Notes under the pieces: model-generated
Database searches by the model: none
What the model was told of the DNA's origin: nothing
The model's input: the letters and a program-made list of their open reading frames with translations, nothing else
Shown here: positions 5,511 to 62,734 of the stretch, piece by piece
How positions within the stretch are numbered: the first letter of the stretch is position 1
Layout of the letters: each line of letters starts with the position of its first letter
Source: Escherichia phage vB_EcoM_F1
Length of the DNA stretch: 64,000 nt
Sequence record: NC_054912.1
Reading direction: 5' to 3' (one strand)
Program-made: the position numbers and the translations under genes

Positions 5511-5687
5511 TTACCCTTTAAGTAAGTCGTAAAATCCACCGTTCACATGCTTAGGAGCGGAAACTAACCGAATAGCAATCCGATGACAATCAGGACATAC
5601 ATCAGTATCCCTTTCAGAAATTTTCTTGATTTTTTCATATTCTTTTGCGCAGTCTTTGGATTGACATTTATAATCATAAAGAGGCAT
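5511..5687 (-). CDS. small zinc-ribbon protein (CxxC..CxxC, FmdB-like)
   Basis: 58-aa ORF MPLYDYKCQSKDCAKEYEKI...CPDCH found by manual translation; below the 60-aa track cutoff. Confidence 0.5.
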   Translation of the reverse strand: MPLYDYKCQSKDCAKEYEKIKKISERDTDVCPDCHRIAIRLVSAPKHVNGGFYDLLKG

Positions 5688-5689
5688 AA

Positions 5690-6103
5690 TTATTCCTTAA
5701 AGTGAGCTTTCAACATCTGATACAAGGACCATGCCTGTTCATTATTTTCAATAGTAACTTTCATGATCGGGAATTCAGATGGTTCAGTTACTGGTGCAGG
5801 GTCTTCCTGCTCTTCAGCAGCCTGATATGGATTTTCCACTTCATTAAAGAACTCGGCTTCGTTGCTAGAAAGCCAGATAAAGTTTTCGTCAATGACTGTA
5901 CCTCGTGATGAATATCCAACTATGCCAGTAGATGTCACAATTTTAGTAGGACGCCCGTAATAGTCAACATCTAAAATTTTAAAAGGTTCCATACCTAAAC
6001 GCCGCGCATAGATTCCGTTATCAGTATGGTCTTTAATAAAATTTTCTTGAGCTTGTTTATTTTTGAATTGATACCATTTATTAACTTCAAATTTAATAGC
6101 CAT
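5690..6103 (-). CDS. hypothetical protein
   Basis: track ORF 5690..6121 trimmed to ATG at 6103 (track start is TTG); ATG overlaps upstream stop. Confidence 0.5.
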
Positions 6104-6321
6104 TAATAAATTTCCTTCCAATAAGTTGTGCCATTTTCAGTAATTTCACGAAATACACCATAAATTGGTTGTTTATCACCGACTTTCTCATACACATAAA
6201 CAGAAGTCAAGTGAGTAAACTTGCTAGTATGTTCCTTTTGAACTACTACCAAATCTGGATCGAATAATACATCTTCAAATTCATCATTAGTGCAATTCTG
6301 AACAATTTTACGTTTCATCAT
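6103..6321 (-). CDS. hypothetical protein (72 aa)
   Basis: ORF with ATG start; same strand, tightly packed. Confidence 0.5.
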
Positions 6322-6418
6322 AATTTCCTCATTAATTGAACATTGGAGCGATGCGTTTCAGAAGAGTATCAGCGCACCTTTAACGAATTTCCATTTTATT
6401 CTTCAAGTTGTTTTCTGT

Positions 6419-6461
6419 ATCAGTAGTTGATATTGATATAGTACCATAATCAACTACTGAT
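6419..6461 (-). repeat. 13-bp perfect inverted repeat (atcagtagttgat / atcaactactgat) flanking a TGGTACTATA -10-like element
   Basis: seen directly; arm sequence also recurs downstream of other early promoters. Confidence 0.5.
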
Positions 6462-6491
6462 GTATATAGTTTTATGAAAAAATTTTAAACT

Positions 6492-6989
6492 TTATGCATA
6501 GAGAGCATTGCTATAGTGTTTAATCCAACTTTCAGGAATGACTTTGTATGTTCCTAAAAATACCACATTGTACAGCTTAACACCATCTTCTACCCATTGA
6601 TCGGTAATGTATGCACACATAGCGCGAGTACGATGTTTTTGAACAACCCCTTCCTCATCTTCGGTAAATTCGAATTCATAAGGAGCAACGAACTTGATAG
6701 CTTGACCGAGTTTCCACTTAAAGTCTACACCTACATGCGAAGTATCAATCGTTTCAATTCCTTTAGCAGGAACAGCTTTCAAAAACACAGATTCAAGAAA
6801 TTTCGCGCGAACATAACCAAACTGGGGTTTAGACTTTCCATCTTTAGGAATGATACGCACTTTTACTTCAGAATCTTCATCTTTAACGCCATGTTTAAGC
6901 TGAATGCTTACAATTTCGACCAATTTTCCTGCTGCTTTAGAACGGGATTTATCAGATACACGAGCAATTTCACCAATATTAATAATCAT
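6492..6989 (-). CDS. hypothetical protein (165 aa), paralog of 7066..7611
   Basis: shares TDQW[VI]EDGV.L.NVV motif with the neighbouring ORF. Confidence 0.55.
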   Translation of the reverse strand: MIINIGEIARVSDKSRSKAAGKLVEIVSIQLKHGVKDEDSEVKVRIIPKDGKSKPQFGYVRAKFLESVFLKAVPAKGIETIDTSHVGVDFKWKLGQAIKFVAPYEFEFTEDEEGVVQKHRTRAMCAYITDQWVEDGVKLYNVVFLGTYKVIPESWIKHYSNALYA

Positions 6990-7065
6990 AGTTATCTCTC
7001 ACCTGTTAAAAAGATTTTATACTCCACAGGACCATTATACTCTGGTCCCAAGAGTTTGTAAACTA

Positions 7066-7611
7066 TTAATTCAAAATAGCTACCACCGCACTACGAGGTA
7101 CTACACTAAAATCTCCTACATGGACAACGTTCAGAAGCTCAACACCATCTTCAATCCACTGGTCTGTTACCCAACCACAGATAGGATTATCAAAAGGACG
7201 ACGGATAGACACAGCAGCACACAACAGGTCTGTAGGGTCTTGTTCTTCAACTTCTTGGAACAGGATGAACTCATCTTCATAAACCAGGTTTTTCTTTATT
7301 TTGTTATTATCTAACCGGCGACCGTGGATGACGTAAGATTTGTCAAACCACTCACTTTTGGCAAATTCTTCAACAATAAATTCGCCTTCGCCAAAAACAT
7401 CAGTCAGAGTTTTATGACCAGAAATCAAGGCATTAGTTTTAATTTTAGGTTCAACCAGTTTGTAGGTTTTGCCGATTTCAATAGCGGTAGTCATAGTAGG
7501 TTCCTTAATTTCCAGTGGTTTAACAGGGCATACATAAGTGCTTACAACATCAAAATCAATCAGTTTAGCTACCGGATTTGGTATGTATTCAGGATTATAA
7601 TTAAATTTCAT
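7066..7611 (-). CDS. hypothetical protein (181 aa), paralog of 6492..6989
   Basis: shared C-terminal motif with neighbour. Confidence 0.55.
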   Translation of the reverse strand: MKFNYNPEYIPNPVAKLIDFDVVSTYVCPVKPLEIKEPTMTTAIEIGKTYKLVEPKIKTNALISGHKTLTDVFGEGEFIVEEFAKSEWFDKSYVIHGRRLDNNKIKKNLVYEDEFILFQEVEEQDPTDLLCAAVSIRRPFDNPICGWVTDQWIEDGVELLNVVHVGDFSVVPRSAVVAILN

Positions 7612-7613
7612 AA

Positions 7614-8114
7614 TTATCTCATTTCAATAAAATCTACGAGTTCAGCATGCGATTTGCGGAACATTACTTGGTGCCCACCAATGATAACTTCATCTTCAGG
7701 AACTTCGTATACAGCGAGATAAAATCCTTTAGAAGATAATTCTTCCCGCTCTTCTCGTGTGAACCATCTCATCATATCATATTCGCTAGCGAAAGCAAAA
7801 TGATAAAGACCTATAAACCATCCTGGAATATGATATTCTACTCCAACATAATCTTTCTTGAACTTAGTATTAATTACTATATTAGCGTTTTTAACTAATA
7901 GTTTATCTTCGTGTGGTAAAGGAATTCTTTTATTATTATCGCTATGATGCATAAAATTAGGTCTGTCATAACCTACGTGTAATAGCCACTCTTCGCTCCA
8001 TGAATCTATTATACTCCTGTACGGCGTTATTTGAACACAAAGATTTCGACGTATTGTTATAGCATCTTCATTATTAAGAATACTAAAAGATGATTCAACA
8101 CGATAAATTTTCAT
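7614..8114 (-). CDS. hypothetical protein (166 aa)
   Basis: ORF with ATG; early promoter immediately upstream. Confidence 0.5.
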   Translation of the reverse strand: MKIYRVESSFSILNNEDAITIRRNLCVQITPYRSIIDSWSEEWLLHVGYDRPNFMHHSDNNKRIPLPHEDKLLVKNANIVINTKFKKDYVGVEYHIPGWFIGLYHFAFASEYDMMRWFTREEREELSSKGFYLAVYEVPEDEVIIGGHQVMFRKSHAELVDFIEMR

Positions 8115-8138
8115 TTTATTATCCTCAGTAGCTATGGT

Positions 8139-8171
8139 GTTATAATACCATAACTAACCGAGGAAGTAAAC
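8139..8171 (-). promoter_or_regulatory. T4-type early promoter
   Basis: minus strand GTTTACttcctcggttagttaTGGTATTATAAC upstream of 7614..8114. Confidence 0.45.
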
Positions 8172-8177
8172 AACTTT

Positions 8178-8861
8178 TTATCGTTTTGTTGGAAGAGACA
8201 GAGGATCGCACTCTTCCTCTGACGGAGCATCTTCAAGACCCATAGCGTATCGCAAAGCATACTTCATCATCAGGATGTCTTTCGCACAGTCATGAATAGA
8301 ATTATGCGCAACGAATCCATCTAAAGTTCCTTTTGGAAGAGGACACGTGGTCATATCACGAACAAGGAGAAGTGCTTCAATTCTAGTACGAATATCACGC
8401 TGATTCCAGAATTTACATGGTTCTAACTTAAATGTGTCAAGCTCATTCTCAGAAACGCCGTTAAGACGTTGAATATCACGAATGAGATCGACTAAAATTG
8501 GAAAATCAAACGACATTCCACGGCACCAGCCTTGAGATTTCCAAGGATCGATATTATGTGCATTGATGTAATCATTAAATTTTGCAATACCATCAATGGT
8601 GCTTACATCTTCATCTGATGGTGCAATATTTTTTCTAGCTTCAGGTGATTGATTTTTCCACCATTCGATAGTGCTTTTAGTAAAAAGACGATGTCCTTTT
8701 TGGCTTTTTAAATCAAATTTGATTTTAATGCCACGTGAAACTAGTTCATCGAATGTTTCAACTACTTCTGGATTAGGGTCAAAAGCAATTACAGCCAAAT
8801 CAATAACCGCTGCTTTTTCACCACTTCCCATTGTTTCAAAATCTATAATAAAATCAAACAT
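8178..8861 (-). CDS. dexA: exonuclease A (3'-5' DEDD-type exonuclease)
   Basis: 227-aa ORF, N-terminus MFDFIIDFETMG recognised as T4 DexA; length matches. Confidence 0.85.
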   Translation of the reverse strand: MFDFIIDFETMGSGEKAAVIDLAVIAFDPNPEVVETFDELVSRGIKIKFDLKSQKGHRLFTKSTIEWWKNQSPEARKNIAPSDEDVSTIDGIAKFNDYINAHNIDPWKSQGWCRGMSFDFPILVDLIRDIQRLNGVSENELDTFKLEPCKFWNQRDIRTRIEALLLVRDMTTCPLPKGTLDGFVAHNSIHDCAKDILMMKYALRYAMGLEDAPSEEECDPLSLPTKR

Positions 8862-20881: not shown

Positions 20882-20910
20882 AACAATCTCCTCATTTAAC
20901 CAACAAGACT

Positions 20911-20940
20911 ACTATACCATAGTCTTGTCAGCTTGTAAAC
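20911..20940 (-). promoter_or_regulatory. T4-type early promoter upstream of dmd
   Basis: minus strand GTTTACaagctgacaagactaTGGTATAGT. Confidence 0.5.
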
Positions 20941-26592: not shown

Positions 26593-26627
26593 TTCATTCT
26601 CCAAATCCGTATCAGTAGTTGATAGTT

Positions 26628-52565: not shown

Positions 52566-52591
52566 TTTCTGTTCCTCCGTAGTTGATAGTT

Positions 52592-52623
52592 GTATAGTAC
52601 CACAGAGGAACGGTCTTGTAAAC
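52592..52623 (-). promoter_or_regulatory. T4-type early promoter (TGGTACTATAC variant)
   Basis: minus strand GTTTACaagaccgttcctctgTGGTACTATACaactatcaactac. Confidence 0.45.
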
Positions 52624-53998: not shown

Positions 53999-54033
53999 TT
54001 TATTCTCCAATCTCACATTTGTTTTGATAGGGT

Positions 54034-54064
54034 AATAGTATCACACTACTACCCTTCTGTAAAC
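54034..54064 (-). promoter_or_regulatory. T4-type early promoter
   Basis: minus strand GTTTACagaagggtagtagtgTGATACTATTACC. Confidence 0.4.
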
Positions 54065-54477: not shown

Positions 54478-54511
54478 TTTGTTTTCCGTTTAAGTGTTTG
54501 TTTTGATAGTT

Positions 54512-54543
54512 GTATAGTACCATAAAGCTTTATGCTTGTAAAC
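54512..54543 (-). promoter_or_regulatory. T4-type early promoter (TGGTACTATAC variant)
   Basis: minus strand GTTTACaagcataaagctttaTGGTACTATACaactatcaaaac. Confidence 0.45.
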
Positions 54544-54573
54544 AACTTTGTGAAAAATTTTTGAAATAAAAAA

Positions 54574-54591
54574 GGGAGCCCGAAGGCTCCC
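54574..54591 (-). terminator. strong stem-loop gggagcc-cgaa-ggctccc with U-run
   Basis: 7-bp GC stem, UUCG loop, minus RNA followed by uuuuuuauuuc. Confidence 0.6.
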
Positions 54592-57584: not shown

Positions 57585-57713
57585 TACATACTCCTTTGAA
57601 TAATATCAATAATGTTGTTCACCAGATTATAAGTAAACATTGGGTAATTATATTGAATCATCACATACACAACAAACAAAACTTTCATTCTCTTCTCCTT
57701 GGCAGTTGACAAG

Positions 57714-57746
57714 ATTACTATACCATAACCTTGCCAACTTGTAAAC
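57714..57746 (-). promoter_or_regulatory. T4-type early promoter
   Basis: minus strand GTTTACaagttggcaaggttaTGGTATAGTAAT. Confidence 0.45.
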
Positions 57747-62677: not shown

Positions 62678-62704
62678 GTTATTCTCCTCTTAACTGATAG
62701 AAAA

Positions 62705-62734
62705 ATTATACCACAGTCAAGAGGAAAAGTAAAC
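62705..62734 (-). promoter_or_regulatory. T4-type early promoter upstream of regB
   Basis: minus strand GTTTACttttcctcttgactgTGGTATAAT. Confidence 0.5.

What the first reader, a model, noticed from the sequence alone, without database searches (positions are those of the whole stretch)
6419..6461. Perfect 13-bp inverted repeat enclosing a promoter -10-like element; arm motif recurs in early leaders
atcagtagttgat and its reverse complement flank a 17-nt spacer containing TGGTACTATA. The same arm sequence (AACTATCAACTAC) follows the -10 of several early promoters (26611-26623, 52576-52590 and 54500-54510). It could be an operator, an RNA processing site or a leader hairpin shared by a subset of early transcripts.
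Basis: seen in the sequence. Interest (0 to 1): 0.35.

Follow-up and report, generated by a model that had tools for sequence, protein, structure and literature searches.

The report
Early promoter built inside an RNA hairpin
The 13-bp inverted repeat is real and wraps the -10 box of the T4-type early promoter upstream of gene cef; it is one case of a recurrent design in which only RNAs that read through a promoter from upstream can fold a stable hairpin, while RNAs started at that promoter cannot.

Summary
The window is Escherichia phage vB_EcoM_FN (Tequatrovirus). The perfect 13-bp repeat (6419-6431 / 6449-6461) is confirmed. It is the only one of its kind in the window, and T4 and T2 carry it unchanged.

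It sits on the gene (minus) strand in the motB-cef spacer, inside an early promoter with an A/T-rich UP tract, a weak -35 (ATATAC) and an extended -10 (TGGTACTAT). The upstream arm fills the -35/-10 spacer (-30..-18). The downstream arm is the predicted first 13 nt of the transcript.

The downstream arm (ATCAACTAC...) is a leader start shared by 7 promoters. Only this promoter has the inverted partner, so a shared operator or shared leader hairpin is not supported.

The architecture is nevertheless general. In 12 of 33 early promoters the spacer is strongly complementary to its own leader, against 1.1% of non-cognate pairs. G·U pairs favour the sense strand. The cef-upstream promoters of other genera keep a -10-straddling hairpin through compensatory changes.

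Best reading: an RNA hairpin formed only in read-through transcripts, an early-promoter counterpart of the T4 e/soc/49/I-TevI hairpins. Its effect at cef is inferred, because the Shine-Dalgarno sequence is not inside the helix.

The parts
6449..6461 (-). 5' arm of the hairpin (ATCAGTAGTTGAT read 6461->6449). It occupies promoter positions -30..-18, the -35/-10 spacer.
   Evidence: It is unique to this promoter: the paralogous promoters carry CCTGTTCTTC here.
6432..6448 (-). Hairpin interior (TATGGTACTATATCAAT). It contains the extended -10: TGG at 6446-6444 and TACTAT at 6443-6438. In RNA it forms an inner 5-bp stem (UGGUA/UAUCA, one G.U) with a CUA triloop.
   Evidence: The same TGGTACTAT box is found in 26638, 52602, 54522 and others.
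6419..6431 (-). 3' arm (ATCAACTACTGAT read 6431->6419). It is the predicted +1..+13 of the transcript started at this promoter, and the start of a leader shared by 7 early promoters.
   Evidence: The start site at 6431 is inferred from the spacing after the -10 (7 nt); it has not been mapped.
6462..6467 (-). Degenerate -35 hexamer ATATAC (family consensus GTTTAC), 18 nt upstream of TACTAT.
   Evidence: column-for-column alignment with promoters that carry GTTTAC.
6471..6490 (-). A/T-rich UP-element-like tract (GTTTAAAATTTTTTCATAAA), conserved with the paralogous early promoters.
   Evidence: The UP/-35/TGn/-10 make-up of T4 early promoters is described in PMC2988021.
6380..6404 (-). Leader remnant: GAAG (GGAG in T4/T2) + AAUAAAAUG, then a 4-codon stub of an 89-aa ORF that is intact in T2 and RB18. 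It starts 14 nt after the hairpin and is not inside it.
   Evidence: GGAGAAUAAAA is the RegB target consensus (PMC1702504).
6434..6442 (+). Mirror-image extended -10 (TGATATAGT) on the opposite strand, created by the near-palindromic loop.
   Evidence: Activity was not tested.
8121..8165 (-). Same architecture at the nearest upstream early promoter, which I take to be T4 P8.1 from its position upstream of motB.2. The spacer TTCCTCGGTTAGTTATGG pairs with the leader ACCATAGCTACTGAGGAT, which includes the Shine-Dalgarno (-23.1 kcal/mol). This promoter is the likely source of read-through across 6461-6419.
   Evidence: No terminator-like site was found between it and 6461.
20897..20934 (-). Class member: a 14-bp hairpin tightly straddling TGGTATAG (-19.3 kcal/mol).
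52570..52612 (-). Class member: the spacer CGTTCCTCTGTGG pairs with the leader ACTACGGAGGAACA, which includes the Shine-Dalgarno (-20.0 kcal/mol). It shares the ATCAACTAC leader start.
54025..54058 (-). Class member: AGGGTAGTAG / TATTACCCTA around TGATACTAT (-12.7 kcal/mol). It is nearly identical to the cef promoter hairpin of Dhakavirus WG01.
57703..57740 (-). Class member: a 14-bp hairpin straddling TGGTATAG (-19.4 kcal/mol), paralogous to 20897-20934. All 9 differences within the helix preserve pairing.
62681..62729 (-). Class member: the spacer CTTTTCCTCTTGACTGTGG pairs with the leader TCTATCAGTTAAGAGGAGAAT, which includes the Shine-Dalgarno (-22.5 kcal/mol).

Best explanation
The repeat is a promoter built inside a hairpin.

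Shown:
- It lies in a T4-type early promoter upstream of cef. One arm fills the -35/-10 spacer, the extended -10 sits in the hairpin interior, and the other arm is the first 13 nt downstream of the predicted start.
- The same arrangement, with other arm sequences, is strongly enriched among this phage's early promoters.
- Its non-Watson-Crick pairs are G.U on the sense strand.
- It is kept by compensatory changes at the cef promoters of other genera.

Inferred:
- Transcripts that start upstream, at the P8.1-like promoter at 8150 (identified with T4 P8.1 by position), and run through motB.2-motB.1-motB carry both arms. They fold a hairpin of about -20 kcal/mol at the motB/cef boundary.
- Transcripts started at this promoter begin at about 6431 with the 3' arm only and stay unstructured (-14.5 kcal/mol over 132 nt, z = +1.2).
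- The two mRNA isoforms for cef-goF therefore differ in one stable structure just 5' of the leader.

In the class members whose 3' arm contains the Shine-Dalgarno (8150, 52602, 62713 and others), this should block ribosomes and RegB on read-through RNA. That is the early-promoter counterpart of the T4 e/soc/49/I-TevI gates. At cef the helix ends 13 nt before the GGAGAAUAAAA site of T4, so the effect is more likely on access to the leader, on processing, or on stability at the cistron boundary. That last step is the weakest.
For: - Anatomy.
- Distribution: identical in T4, T2, RB59 and KNP5. 429 of 532 phage records match a 63-nt core at 99% or more, against only 46 of 534 for the whole 170-nt spacer.
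- Class enrichment: across the whole FN genome, 12 of 33 early promoters have a cognate spacer/leader duplex of -17 kcal/mol or better, against 12 of 1056 non-cognate pairs. In the permutation test, 0 of 20,000 permutations reached the observed value. The window alone gives the same result.
- Strand: the sense strand is better than the antisense in 13 cases and worse in 2 (Wilcoxon p = 0.005).
- Covariation: on cef-upstream promoters of 16 distinct sequences from other genera, 8 of 13 pairs change on both sides. 82% of cells are paired, against 37-50% when the partner is slid (sequences).
- Paralogs: the hairpins at 57725 and 20919 differ at 9 helix positions, and all 9 preserve pairing.
- Terminators: none of the 6 promoters preceded by an intrinsic terminator has a strong straddling hairpin, against 12 of 27 without one (Fisher p = 0.065). 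This fits a role that matters only when read-through occurs.
- RB69: the motB.2 promoter has CTCCTCTGGTT/AACCAGAGGAG at -22.5 kcal/mol.
- Precedent: late promoters inside the 5' half of inhibitory hairpins (PMC3014915). RegB is inhibited by secondary structure (PMC1702504).
Against: - At this promoter the arms are pure Watson-Crick, so they show no strand preference: sense -20.2, antisense -18.0, DNA -11.5 kcal/mol.
- There is no covariation within Tequatrovirus because the element hardly varies. The three variants seen are one G.U-compatible change, one disruptive change at the penultimate pair (RB18) and one change in the internal loop.
- The hairpins of other genera sit in a different register (centre -11.5 or -14, against -9 here). 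They support the principle but not positional homology.
- The Shine-Dalgarno is not in the helix, so the known translational-gate mechanism does not apply directly.
- The start site, the read-through and the in-vivo fold are not measured. No T4 5'/3'-end map was found in the library.
Confidence: 0.52

Rival explanations
1. No function of its own. A single templated (quasi-palindrome, strand-switch) mutation in a duplicated promoter copied the complement of +1..+10 into the spacer. The repeat then persists because it sits in a conserved promoter core.
For: - Compared with its paralog at 69775, which matches from -55 to +45, this promoter differs mainly in a 10-nt block that is the exact complement of +1..+10, plus the -35 and -5..-1.
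- The arms are perfect with no G.U pairs, as expected from a DNA-templated event.
- Phage Pinarejo carries the 17-nt loop inverted, so the palindrome is mutationally active.
- A bare 13-bp repeat is expected 0.125 times per window.
Against: - The spacer arm, which promoters normally do not constrain in sequence, is unchanged in every ortholog read, while positions just downstream vary.
- The 63-nt core is far better conserved than the rest of the spacer.
- The same architecture recurs at 12 of 33 promoters and, with covariation, in other genera. One accident does not explain that.
Confidence: 0.2
2. DNA-level element: a palindromic operator, a cruciform, or a bidirectional -10 that controls initiation at this promoter.
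For: - The palindrome is centred on the -10 (centre at about -9).
- The arms are 30 bp apart centre to centre, close to three helical turns.
- The DNA hairpin is -11.5 kcal/mol with z = -4.6.
- The loop reads as an extended -10 on both strands: TGGTACTAT (-) and TGATATAGT (+).
- The -35 is degenerate, so the promoter depends on the region inside the palindrome.
Against: - The other six copies of the arm motif have no inverted partner.
- The other straddling repeats each have their own sequence, so there is no common binding site.
- The class shows a sense-strand G.U bias, which a duplex-binding protein would not select.
- Gapriverviruses keep the hairpin without any -10 inside it.
- MotB, encoded next door, is described as a non-specific DNA binder (PMC6070864, abstract listed).
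Confidence: 0.12
3. Dedicated RNA processing or 3'-end element. The 18-bp quasi-continuous helix would be an RNase III-type site, or a 3' protective hairpin for motB mRNA, replacing the terminator stem-loop of PeSL cassettes.
For: - 13 + 5 bp with a small internal loop is near the size RNase III accepts (the size criterion is from my own knowledge).
- Straddling hairpins and upstream terminators do not co-occur.
- The hairpin without a promoter persists at the motB/cef junction in Gapriverviruses.
Against: - There is no U-tract after the helix (ACAGAAAAC), so it is not an intrinsic terminator.
- Most class members have 9-15 bp stems, too short for RNase III.
- No processing data were found.
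Confidence: 0.1

Closest known systems
T4 leader hairpins of genes e, soc, 49 and I-TevI, with a promoter inside the 5' half (reviewed in PMC3014915)
   Same: A promoter lies inside or over the 5' arm. Upstream-initiated RNAs fold and promoter-proximal RNAs do not, so one DNA segment gives two RNA isoforms with different fates. Several class members here (8150, 52602, 62713, 165835, 135644) also bury the Shine-Dalgarno.
   Different: Those cases use late promoters (TATAAATA) and delay expression to late times. Here the promoters are sigma-70 early promoters, and the 5' arm is the -35/-10 spacer itself. At cef the Shine-Dalgarno is outside the helix.
PeSL cassettes (promoter-early stem-loop) of T4-type phages (PMC2839356, PMC4122927)
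   Same: Conserved early-promoter modules with an associated stem-loop, repeated around the hyperplastic early regions and lying next to gene indels. Here an 89-aa ORF is present or absent just downstream.
   Different: The PeSL stem-loop is a G+C-rich terminator placed upstream of the A/T tract and the promoter. Here the helix overlaps the promoter core, has no U-tract, and tends to be absent where a PeSL-type terminator is present.
Palindromic operators overlapping a -10 (LacI/LexA/phage-repressor type; from general knowledge)
   Same: Dyad symmetry centred on the core promoter.
   Different: The half-site does not recur as a dyad at other promoters, no cognate protein is known, and the class shows an RNA-type G.U bias.
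Hairpin promoters of phage N4 virion RNA polymerase (from general knowledge)
   Same: A promoter element presented in a hairpin-forming inverted repeat in an early phage region.
   Different: N4 uses a DNA hairpin recognised by its own polymerase. T4-type early promoters are read by host sigma-70 holoenzyme on duplex DNA.
Small hairpin-loop inversions flanked by inverted repeats, as known from chloroplast spacers (from general knowledge)
   Same: Phage Pinarejo has exactly the 17-nt loop inverted between intact 13-bp arms.
   Different: Seen in 1 of about 523 records. Because the loop is nearly palindromic, the inversion still leaves an extended -10 (TGATATAGT) in the sense direction.

Membership tests
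T4-type early promoter (UP / -35 / TGn / -10) | Extended -10: TGn followed by TAnnnT | tested here: met
   TGGTACTAT at 6446-6438 (-), identical to the box of promoters 26638, 52602 and 54522.
T4-type early promoter (UP / -35 / TGn / -10) | -35 hexamer GTTTAC, 17-18 nt upstream | tested here: inconclusive
   ATATAC matches 4 of 6 at the homologous columns. The promoter would have to rely on TGn/-10 plus the UP tract.
T4-type early promoter (UP / -35 / TGn / -10) | A/T-rich UP-like tract at -40..-60 | tested here: met
   AAAATTTTTTCATAAAA aligns with the tract of the paralogous promoters.
T4-type early promoter (UP / -35 / TGn / -10) | Initiation immediately after infection without phage proteins | not testable with these tools
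   No 5'-end data were found.
Promoter-in-hairpin translational gate (T4 e/soc/49/I-TevI type) | The 5' arm lies upstream of an internal promoter's start, so only upstream-initiated RNA folds | tested here: met
   The arm is at -30..-18. The read-through fold keeps the helix; the promoter-proximal RNA has z = +1.2. The start site is inferred.
Promoter-in-hairpin translational gate (T4 e/soc/49/I-TevI type) | [quoted passage not shown] | tested here: not met
   The helix ends at +13 and GGAG (T4) starts at +27. The feature is met by other class members: 8150, 52602, 62713, 165835, 135644, 121965 and 129169.
Promoter-in-hairpin translational gate (T4 e/soc/49/I-TevI type) | The internal promoter is a late promoter (TATAAATA) | tested here: not met
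   The box is a sigma-70 extended -10.
PeSL cassette | G+C-rich terminator stem-loop upstream of the promoter's A/T tract | tested here: not met
   No terminator-like site was found in 5600-8400 apart from 5875-5854, and none upstream of this promoter.
PeSL cassette | Repeated early-promoter module next to variable ORFs | tested here: met
   The leader and promoter are paralogous to 69775, 26638 and 162682. A 207-bp ORF indel lies directly downstream.
Intrinsic terminator | Stable hairpin followed by a U-run | tested here: not met
   The helix is followed by ACAGAAAAC on the gene strand, and the scan did not call it.
Palindromic operator of a dimeric regulator | The same dyad recurs at co-regulated promoters | tested here: not met
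   7 copies of the arm exist and only this one has a partner. The other straddling dyads have unrelated sequences.
Invertible promoter switch (inverton) | Inverted repeats flank a promoter segment, a site-specific invertase is present, and both orientations occur in populations | tested here: inconclusive
   The flipped form is seen once, in Pinarejo, among about 523 records and not at all in IMG/VR. The segment is only 17 bp. No invertase was sought.
Any Rfam family | Covariance-model match at the gathering score | tested here: not met
   The only hit is a chance mir-217 match: 22 bits against a gathering score of 70, E = 0.34.

The most novel reading that the evidence does not exclude
About a third of T4-type early promoters are self-masking cassettes. 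The -35/-10 spacer doubles as an anti-leader, often an anti-Shine-Dalgarno. Any RNA that reads through the promoter then folds over the promoter-proximal leader, while RNA born at the promoter is open. This would be a genome-wide rule with two consequences. It would confine translation (and RegB cutting) of immediate-early cistrons to their own promoter's transcripts. It would also shield long delayed-early transcripts from internal initiation and cleavage. The rule would be conserved by covariation across Tevenvirinae. I found no description of it for early promoters in the searchable library. Older subscription literature, such as Liebig & Ruger 1989 and the 1994 T4 book, could not be checked.
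Probability: 0.35. Interest if true: 0.65.

Novelty: new variant of a known kind. Interest (0 to 1): 0.5.

Why it matters
T4 is the reference system for timed phage gene expression. How immediate-early and read-through (delayed-early) expression of the same genes are kept apart has never been fully explained.

A promoter spacer that also encodes the masking strand of a leader hairpin would give a simple cis-acting answer. It would link promoter choice to translation, to RegB cleavage and to mRNA decay.

It would also explain why spacer sequences, normally free to drift, are conserved in these promoters. In addition, the design is compact and portable, so it could be used in synthetic operons to make a cistron respond only to its own promoter.

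For this particular site the practical point is a caution. It is not an operator or a motif shared through an inverted partner, and the promoter's own transcripts cannot form the hairpin.

Tried and rejected
- Shared operator or shared hairpin: rejected. Only 1 of 7 arm copies has a partner.
- Intrinsic terminator: rejected. There is no U-run.
- Known RNA family: none found.
- PeSL membership: rejected on the position and nature of the stem-loop.
- Covariation within Tequatrovirus: not possible. The element is nearly invariant.
- Direct orthology with the cef-promoter hairpins of other genera: rejected. The register differs, and Tequatrovirus has an extra ORF or its remnant between the promoter and cef.
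- Invertible switch: considered after finding the flipped loop in phage Pinarejo. It is 1 of about 523 records, and IMG/VR has no exact match.
- Literature searches for T4 5'-end maps, or for a prior description of early-promoter-straddling hairpins, found nothing relevant. Miller et al. 2003 is not held.
- The IMG/VR scan for the loop sequence mostly returned unrelated promoters of other phages.
- The long-range pairing of the UP-tract U-run with the cef Shine-Dalgarno in the read-through fold was not pursued. U-runs pair with any purine-rich Shine-Dalgarno.

Full report
**What and where**

The window is the first 64 kb of Escherichia phage vB_EcoM_FN (MZ170041.1, Tequatrovirus), with a 100% match at the same coordinates. 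Genes here run on the minus strand. The finding lies in the 170-bp spacer between motB (6492-6989) and cef (6103-6321).

Read on the gene strand, the region is:

AAAATTTTTTCATAAAACTATATAC-ATCAGTAGTTGAT-TATGGTACTATATCAAT-ATCAACTACTGAT-ACAGAAAAC.

**The observation**

The two 13-nt arms are exact complements with a 17-nt spacer. The symmetry extends to 20-nt arms at 85% around a 3-nt centre.

As RNA the gene strand folds into 13 bp, a 2x2 loop, 5 bp (one G.U) and a CUA triloop. The energy is -20.2 kcal/mol with z = -5.2. The opposite strand gives -18.0 kcal/mol and the DNA form -11.5 kcal/mol.

It is the only perfect repeat of 13 bp or more with a 3-60 nt spacer in the window. Shuffles give 0.125 per window. 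The bare repeat is therefore only mildly surprising, and its position is what matters.

**Promoter anatomy**

Column-for-column alignment with paralogous early promoters (26638, 52602, and 69775 and 162682 from the rest of the genome) shows the following:

| Element | Sequence | Position |
|---|---|---|
| UP-like A/T tract | GTTTAAAATTTTTTCATAAA | 6490-6471 |
| Degenerate -35 | ATATAC (consensus GTTTAC) | 6467-6462 |
| Extended -10 | TGGTACTAT | 6446-6438 |

This matches the UP/-35/TGn/-10 description of T4 early promoters (PMC2988021).

With the usual 7-nt spacing, the start falls on 6431, the first base of the downstream arm. This is inferred, not mapped. The upstream arm then occupies -30..-18 and the downstream arm +1..+13.

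**The arm motif**

ATCAACTAC occurs 7 times on the early strand of the whole genome, always at +1..+9 behind an extended -10, against 1.2 expected. Only this copy has an inverted partner within 60 nt.

The arm is a leader start shared by a promoter subfamily, not a shared dyad.

Compared with its closest paralog (69775, alignable from -55 to +45), this promoter differs in three places: the -35, a 10-nt spacer block that is the exact complement of +1..+10, and -5..-1.

**Conservation**

- T4 (NC_000866, about 6582-6624), T2, RB59 and KNP5 carry the identical element.
- Of 532 phage records, 429 match a 63-nt core at 99% or more. Only 46 of 534 do so for the full 170-nt spacer.
- Three variants were seen:
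  - Lv5cm has A to G at +12, which gives U.G.
  - RB18 has A to T at the same position, which breaks the penultimate pair.
  - SG1 has A to G in the internal loop.
- With so little variation, no covariation test is possible within the genus.

**The architecture is general**

I assembled the whole FN genome from the window. I then took every minus-strand site with GTTTAC plus TGnTAnnnT, together with this promoter, giving 33 sites. For each I computed the best RNA duplex between the spacer (-32..-13) and the leader (-9..+40).

- Cognate pairs reach -17 kcal/mol or better in 12 of 33 sites. Non-cognate pairs do so in 12 of 1056.
- None of 20,000 permutations matched the observed mean or count. 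The window alone gives the same result.
- None of 15 look-alike sites on the other strand reached -12 kcal/mol.
- Among sites selected without regard to strand, the sense strand is better in 13 and the antisense in 2 (Wilcoxon p = 0.005). The non-Watson-Crick pairs are therefore G.U in the sense RNA.

Two sub-types appear:

| Sub-type | Members | Feature |
|---|---|---|
| Long-range | 8150, 52602, 62713, 165835, 135644, 121965, 129169 | The 3' arm includes the Shine-Dalgarno |
| Tight | 20919, 57725, 54043, 132341, 128778, 73909, 144816, and this site | The helix straddles the -10 and ends 3-17 nt before the Shine-Dalgarno |

The paralogous hairpins at 57725 and 20919 differ at 9 helix positions, and all 9 keep pairing: 2 are double changes and 5 go through G.U.

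RB69 shows the same design at its motB.2 promoter, with CTCCTCTGGTT/AACCAGAGGAG at -22.5 kcal/mol.

**Other genera**

Upstream of cef, several genera and several uncultivated contigs each have a hairpin enclosing the -10, with different arm sequences. The named genera are Mosigvirus, Dhakavirus, Kanagawavirus and Moonvirus, together with Klebsiella-type phages.

On an ungapped alignment of 16 distinct sequences, including one without a hairpin and one in another register:

- 8 of 13 pairs change on both sides.
- 82% of cells pair, against 37-50% when the partner is slid.
- The covariation score is 0.40, against 0.08-0.22 for the slid controls.

Gapriverviruses keep a hairpin at this junction with no -10 inside it.

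These helices are centred at -11.5 or -14, not at -9 as here. Tequatrovirus also has an extra ORF or its remnant after the promoter. They therefore support the principle, not strict homology.

**Mechanism**

An upstream arm at -30..-18 cannot be in RNA started at this promoter. That RNA is unstructured: -14.5 kcal/mol over 132 nt, z = +1.2. RNA arriving from upstream keeps the helix in its minimum-energy fold.

The nearest upstream early promoter is at 8150. I take it to be T4 P8.1 from its position upstream of motB.2. No terminator-like site lies between it and 6461.

T4 offers a direct precedent. For e, soc, 49 and I-TevI, a promoter sits in the 5' half of a hairpin that silences upstream-initiated RNA (PMC3014915). 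RegB, which cuts early mRNAs in GGAG(AAUAAAA), is blocked by secondary structure and cuts the motB.2 leader (PMC1702504).

For the Shine-Dalgarno-containing class members the inference is straightforward. For cef it is weaker, because the helix ends 13 nt before the T4 GGAGAAUAAAA site. In FN that site is mutated to GAAG.

None of the 6 promoters preceded by an intrinsic terminator has a strong straddling hairpin, against 12 of 27 of the others (Fisher p = 0.065; Mann-Whitney p = 0.05). This fits a role tied to read-through.

**Rivals**

- A neutral templated mutation fits the exact 10-nt complement block and the loop inversion in Pinarejo. It does not fit the recurrence and the covariation of the architecture.
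- A DNA-level operator, cruciform or bidirectional -10 fits the perfect arms and the mirrored TGATATAGT on the + strand at 6434-6442. It does not fit the lack of a shared dyad or the G.U bias.
- An RNase III site or 3'-end element is possible for this long helix, but it has no supporting data.

**Known families**

The element is not a PeSL cassette, which has a terminator stem-loop upstream of the promoter (PMC2839356, PMC4122927). It is not an intrinsic terminator and not an Rfam family.

It works like the T4 promoter-in-hairpin gates, but it fails two of their defining features: a late promoter, and a Shine-Dalgarno inside the helix.

**Verdict**

The site is a new variant of a known kind, and the interest is moderate. 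It rests mainly on the genome-wide class, which I could not find described for early promoters in the searchable library. Older subscription literature could not be checked.

Noticed in passing
L008 401-463 (Escherichia phage Pinarejo PP925831.1, 5884-5946): The 17-nt segment between the intact 13-bp arms is inverted relative to FN, T4 and T2. This is the only such record among about 523, and IMG/VR has no exact match. Because the loop is nearly palindromic, the sense strand still reads an extended -10 (TGATATAGT). It is either a hairpin-loop inversion or an assembly artefact.
   Followed up: partly
window 6380-6404 (-); L003 399-668 (T2): FN and T4 lack a 270-nt ORF (89 aa; T2_009 / RB18ORF009) that lies between this promoter and cef in T2, RB18, KIT03 and many others. 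FN keeps only ATG plus 3 codons. The 207-bp indel begins just after the start codon.
   Followed up: partly
window 6401-6404 (-): FN has GAAG where T4 and T2 have GGAG followed by AAUAAAA, the published 11-nt RegB target. FN has therefore lost this RegB/Shine-Dalgarno site on the ORF remnant.
   Followed up: no
window 6434-6442 (+): A mirror-image extended -10 (TGATATAGT) points towards motB, so both strands of the palindrome would start RNAs with AUCAACUACUGAU. Upstream on that strand, AGTTGTTTTC (6406-6415) resembles the family -35 context, but it sits 21 nt away from the -10.
   Followed up: no
window 8121-8165, 20897-20934, 52570-52612, 54025-54058, 57703-57740, 62681-62729 (all -): Six further early promoters in the window have spacers complementary to their own leaders (-12.7 to -23.1 kcal/mol). 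Three of them bury the Shine-Dalgarno. Genome-wide, 12 of 33 promoters reach -17 kcal/mol or better.
   Followed up: yes
window 54567-54591 (-), upstream of the promoter at 54522; also upstream of 15212 and 58525: Classical PeSL-type arrangement: a GGGAGCC-TTCG-GGCTCCC terminator with a T-run directly before the A/T tract of an early promoter. These promoters lack straddling hairpins.
   Followed up: partly
window 6323-6333 and 6474-6484 (-): In the minimum-energy fold of read-through RNA, the U-run of the promoter's UP tract pairs with the cef Shine-Dalgarno (AUGAGGAAAUU) across about 140 nt. This may simply be U-run/purine complementarity.
   Followed up: no
L034 about 541-561; L066, L067 (Gaprivervirus VR7 and relatives): The motB/cef junction keeps a 9-bp hairpin (GATAGGGTA-ATTT-TGCCCTATC) with no recognisable -35 or -10. 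The structure therefore outlives the promoter.
   Followed up: partly
L069 (IMGVR_UViG_2706795719), upstream of cef: The -35 GTTTAC of the promoter lies in the loop of a terminator-like hairpin (AAAAAGAGG-TTTACAA-GACCTCTTTT + T-run). This is another way of overlapping a stem-loop with a promoter.
   Followed up: no
L009 240-259 (T2 AP018813.1, 6093-6112): The record annotates 'attL' over the downstream arm and leader. This is probably an automatic repeat call caused by the duplicated promoter leader, not an attachment site.
   Followed up: no
window 54508-54547: The promoter at 54522 is itself a 25-nt-arm quasi-palindrome (84%) centred on AAGCTT in its spacer. AGTTGT before the -35 is complementary to ACAACT after the -10.
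   Followed up: no
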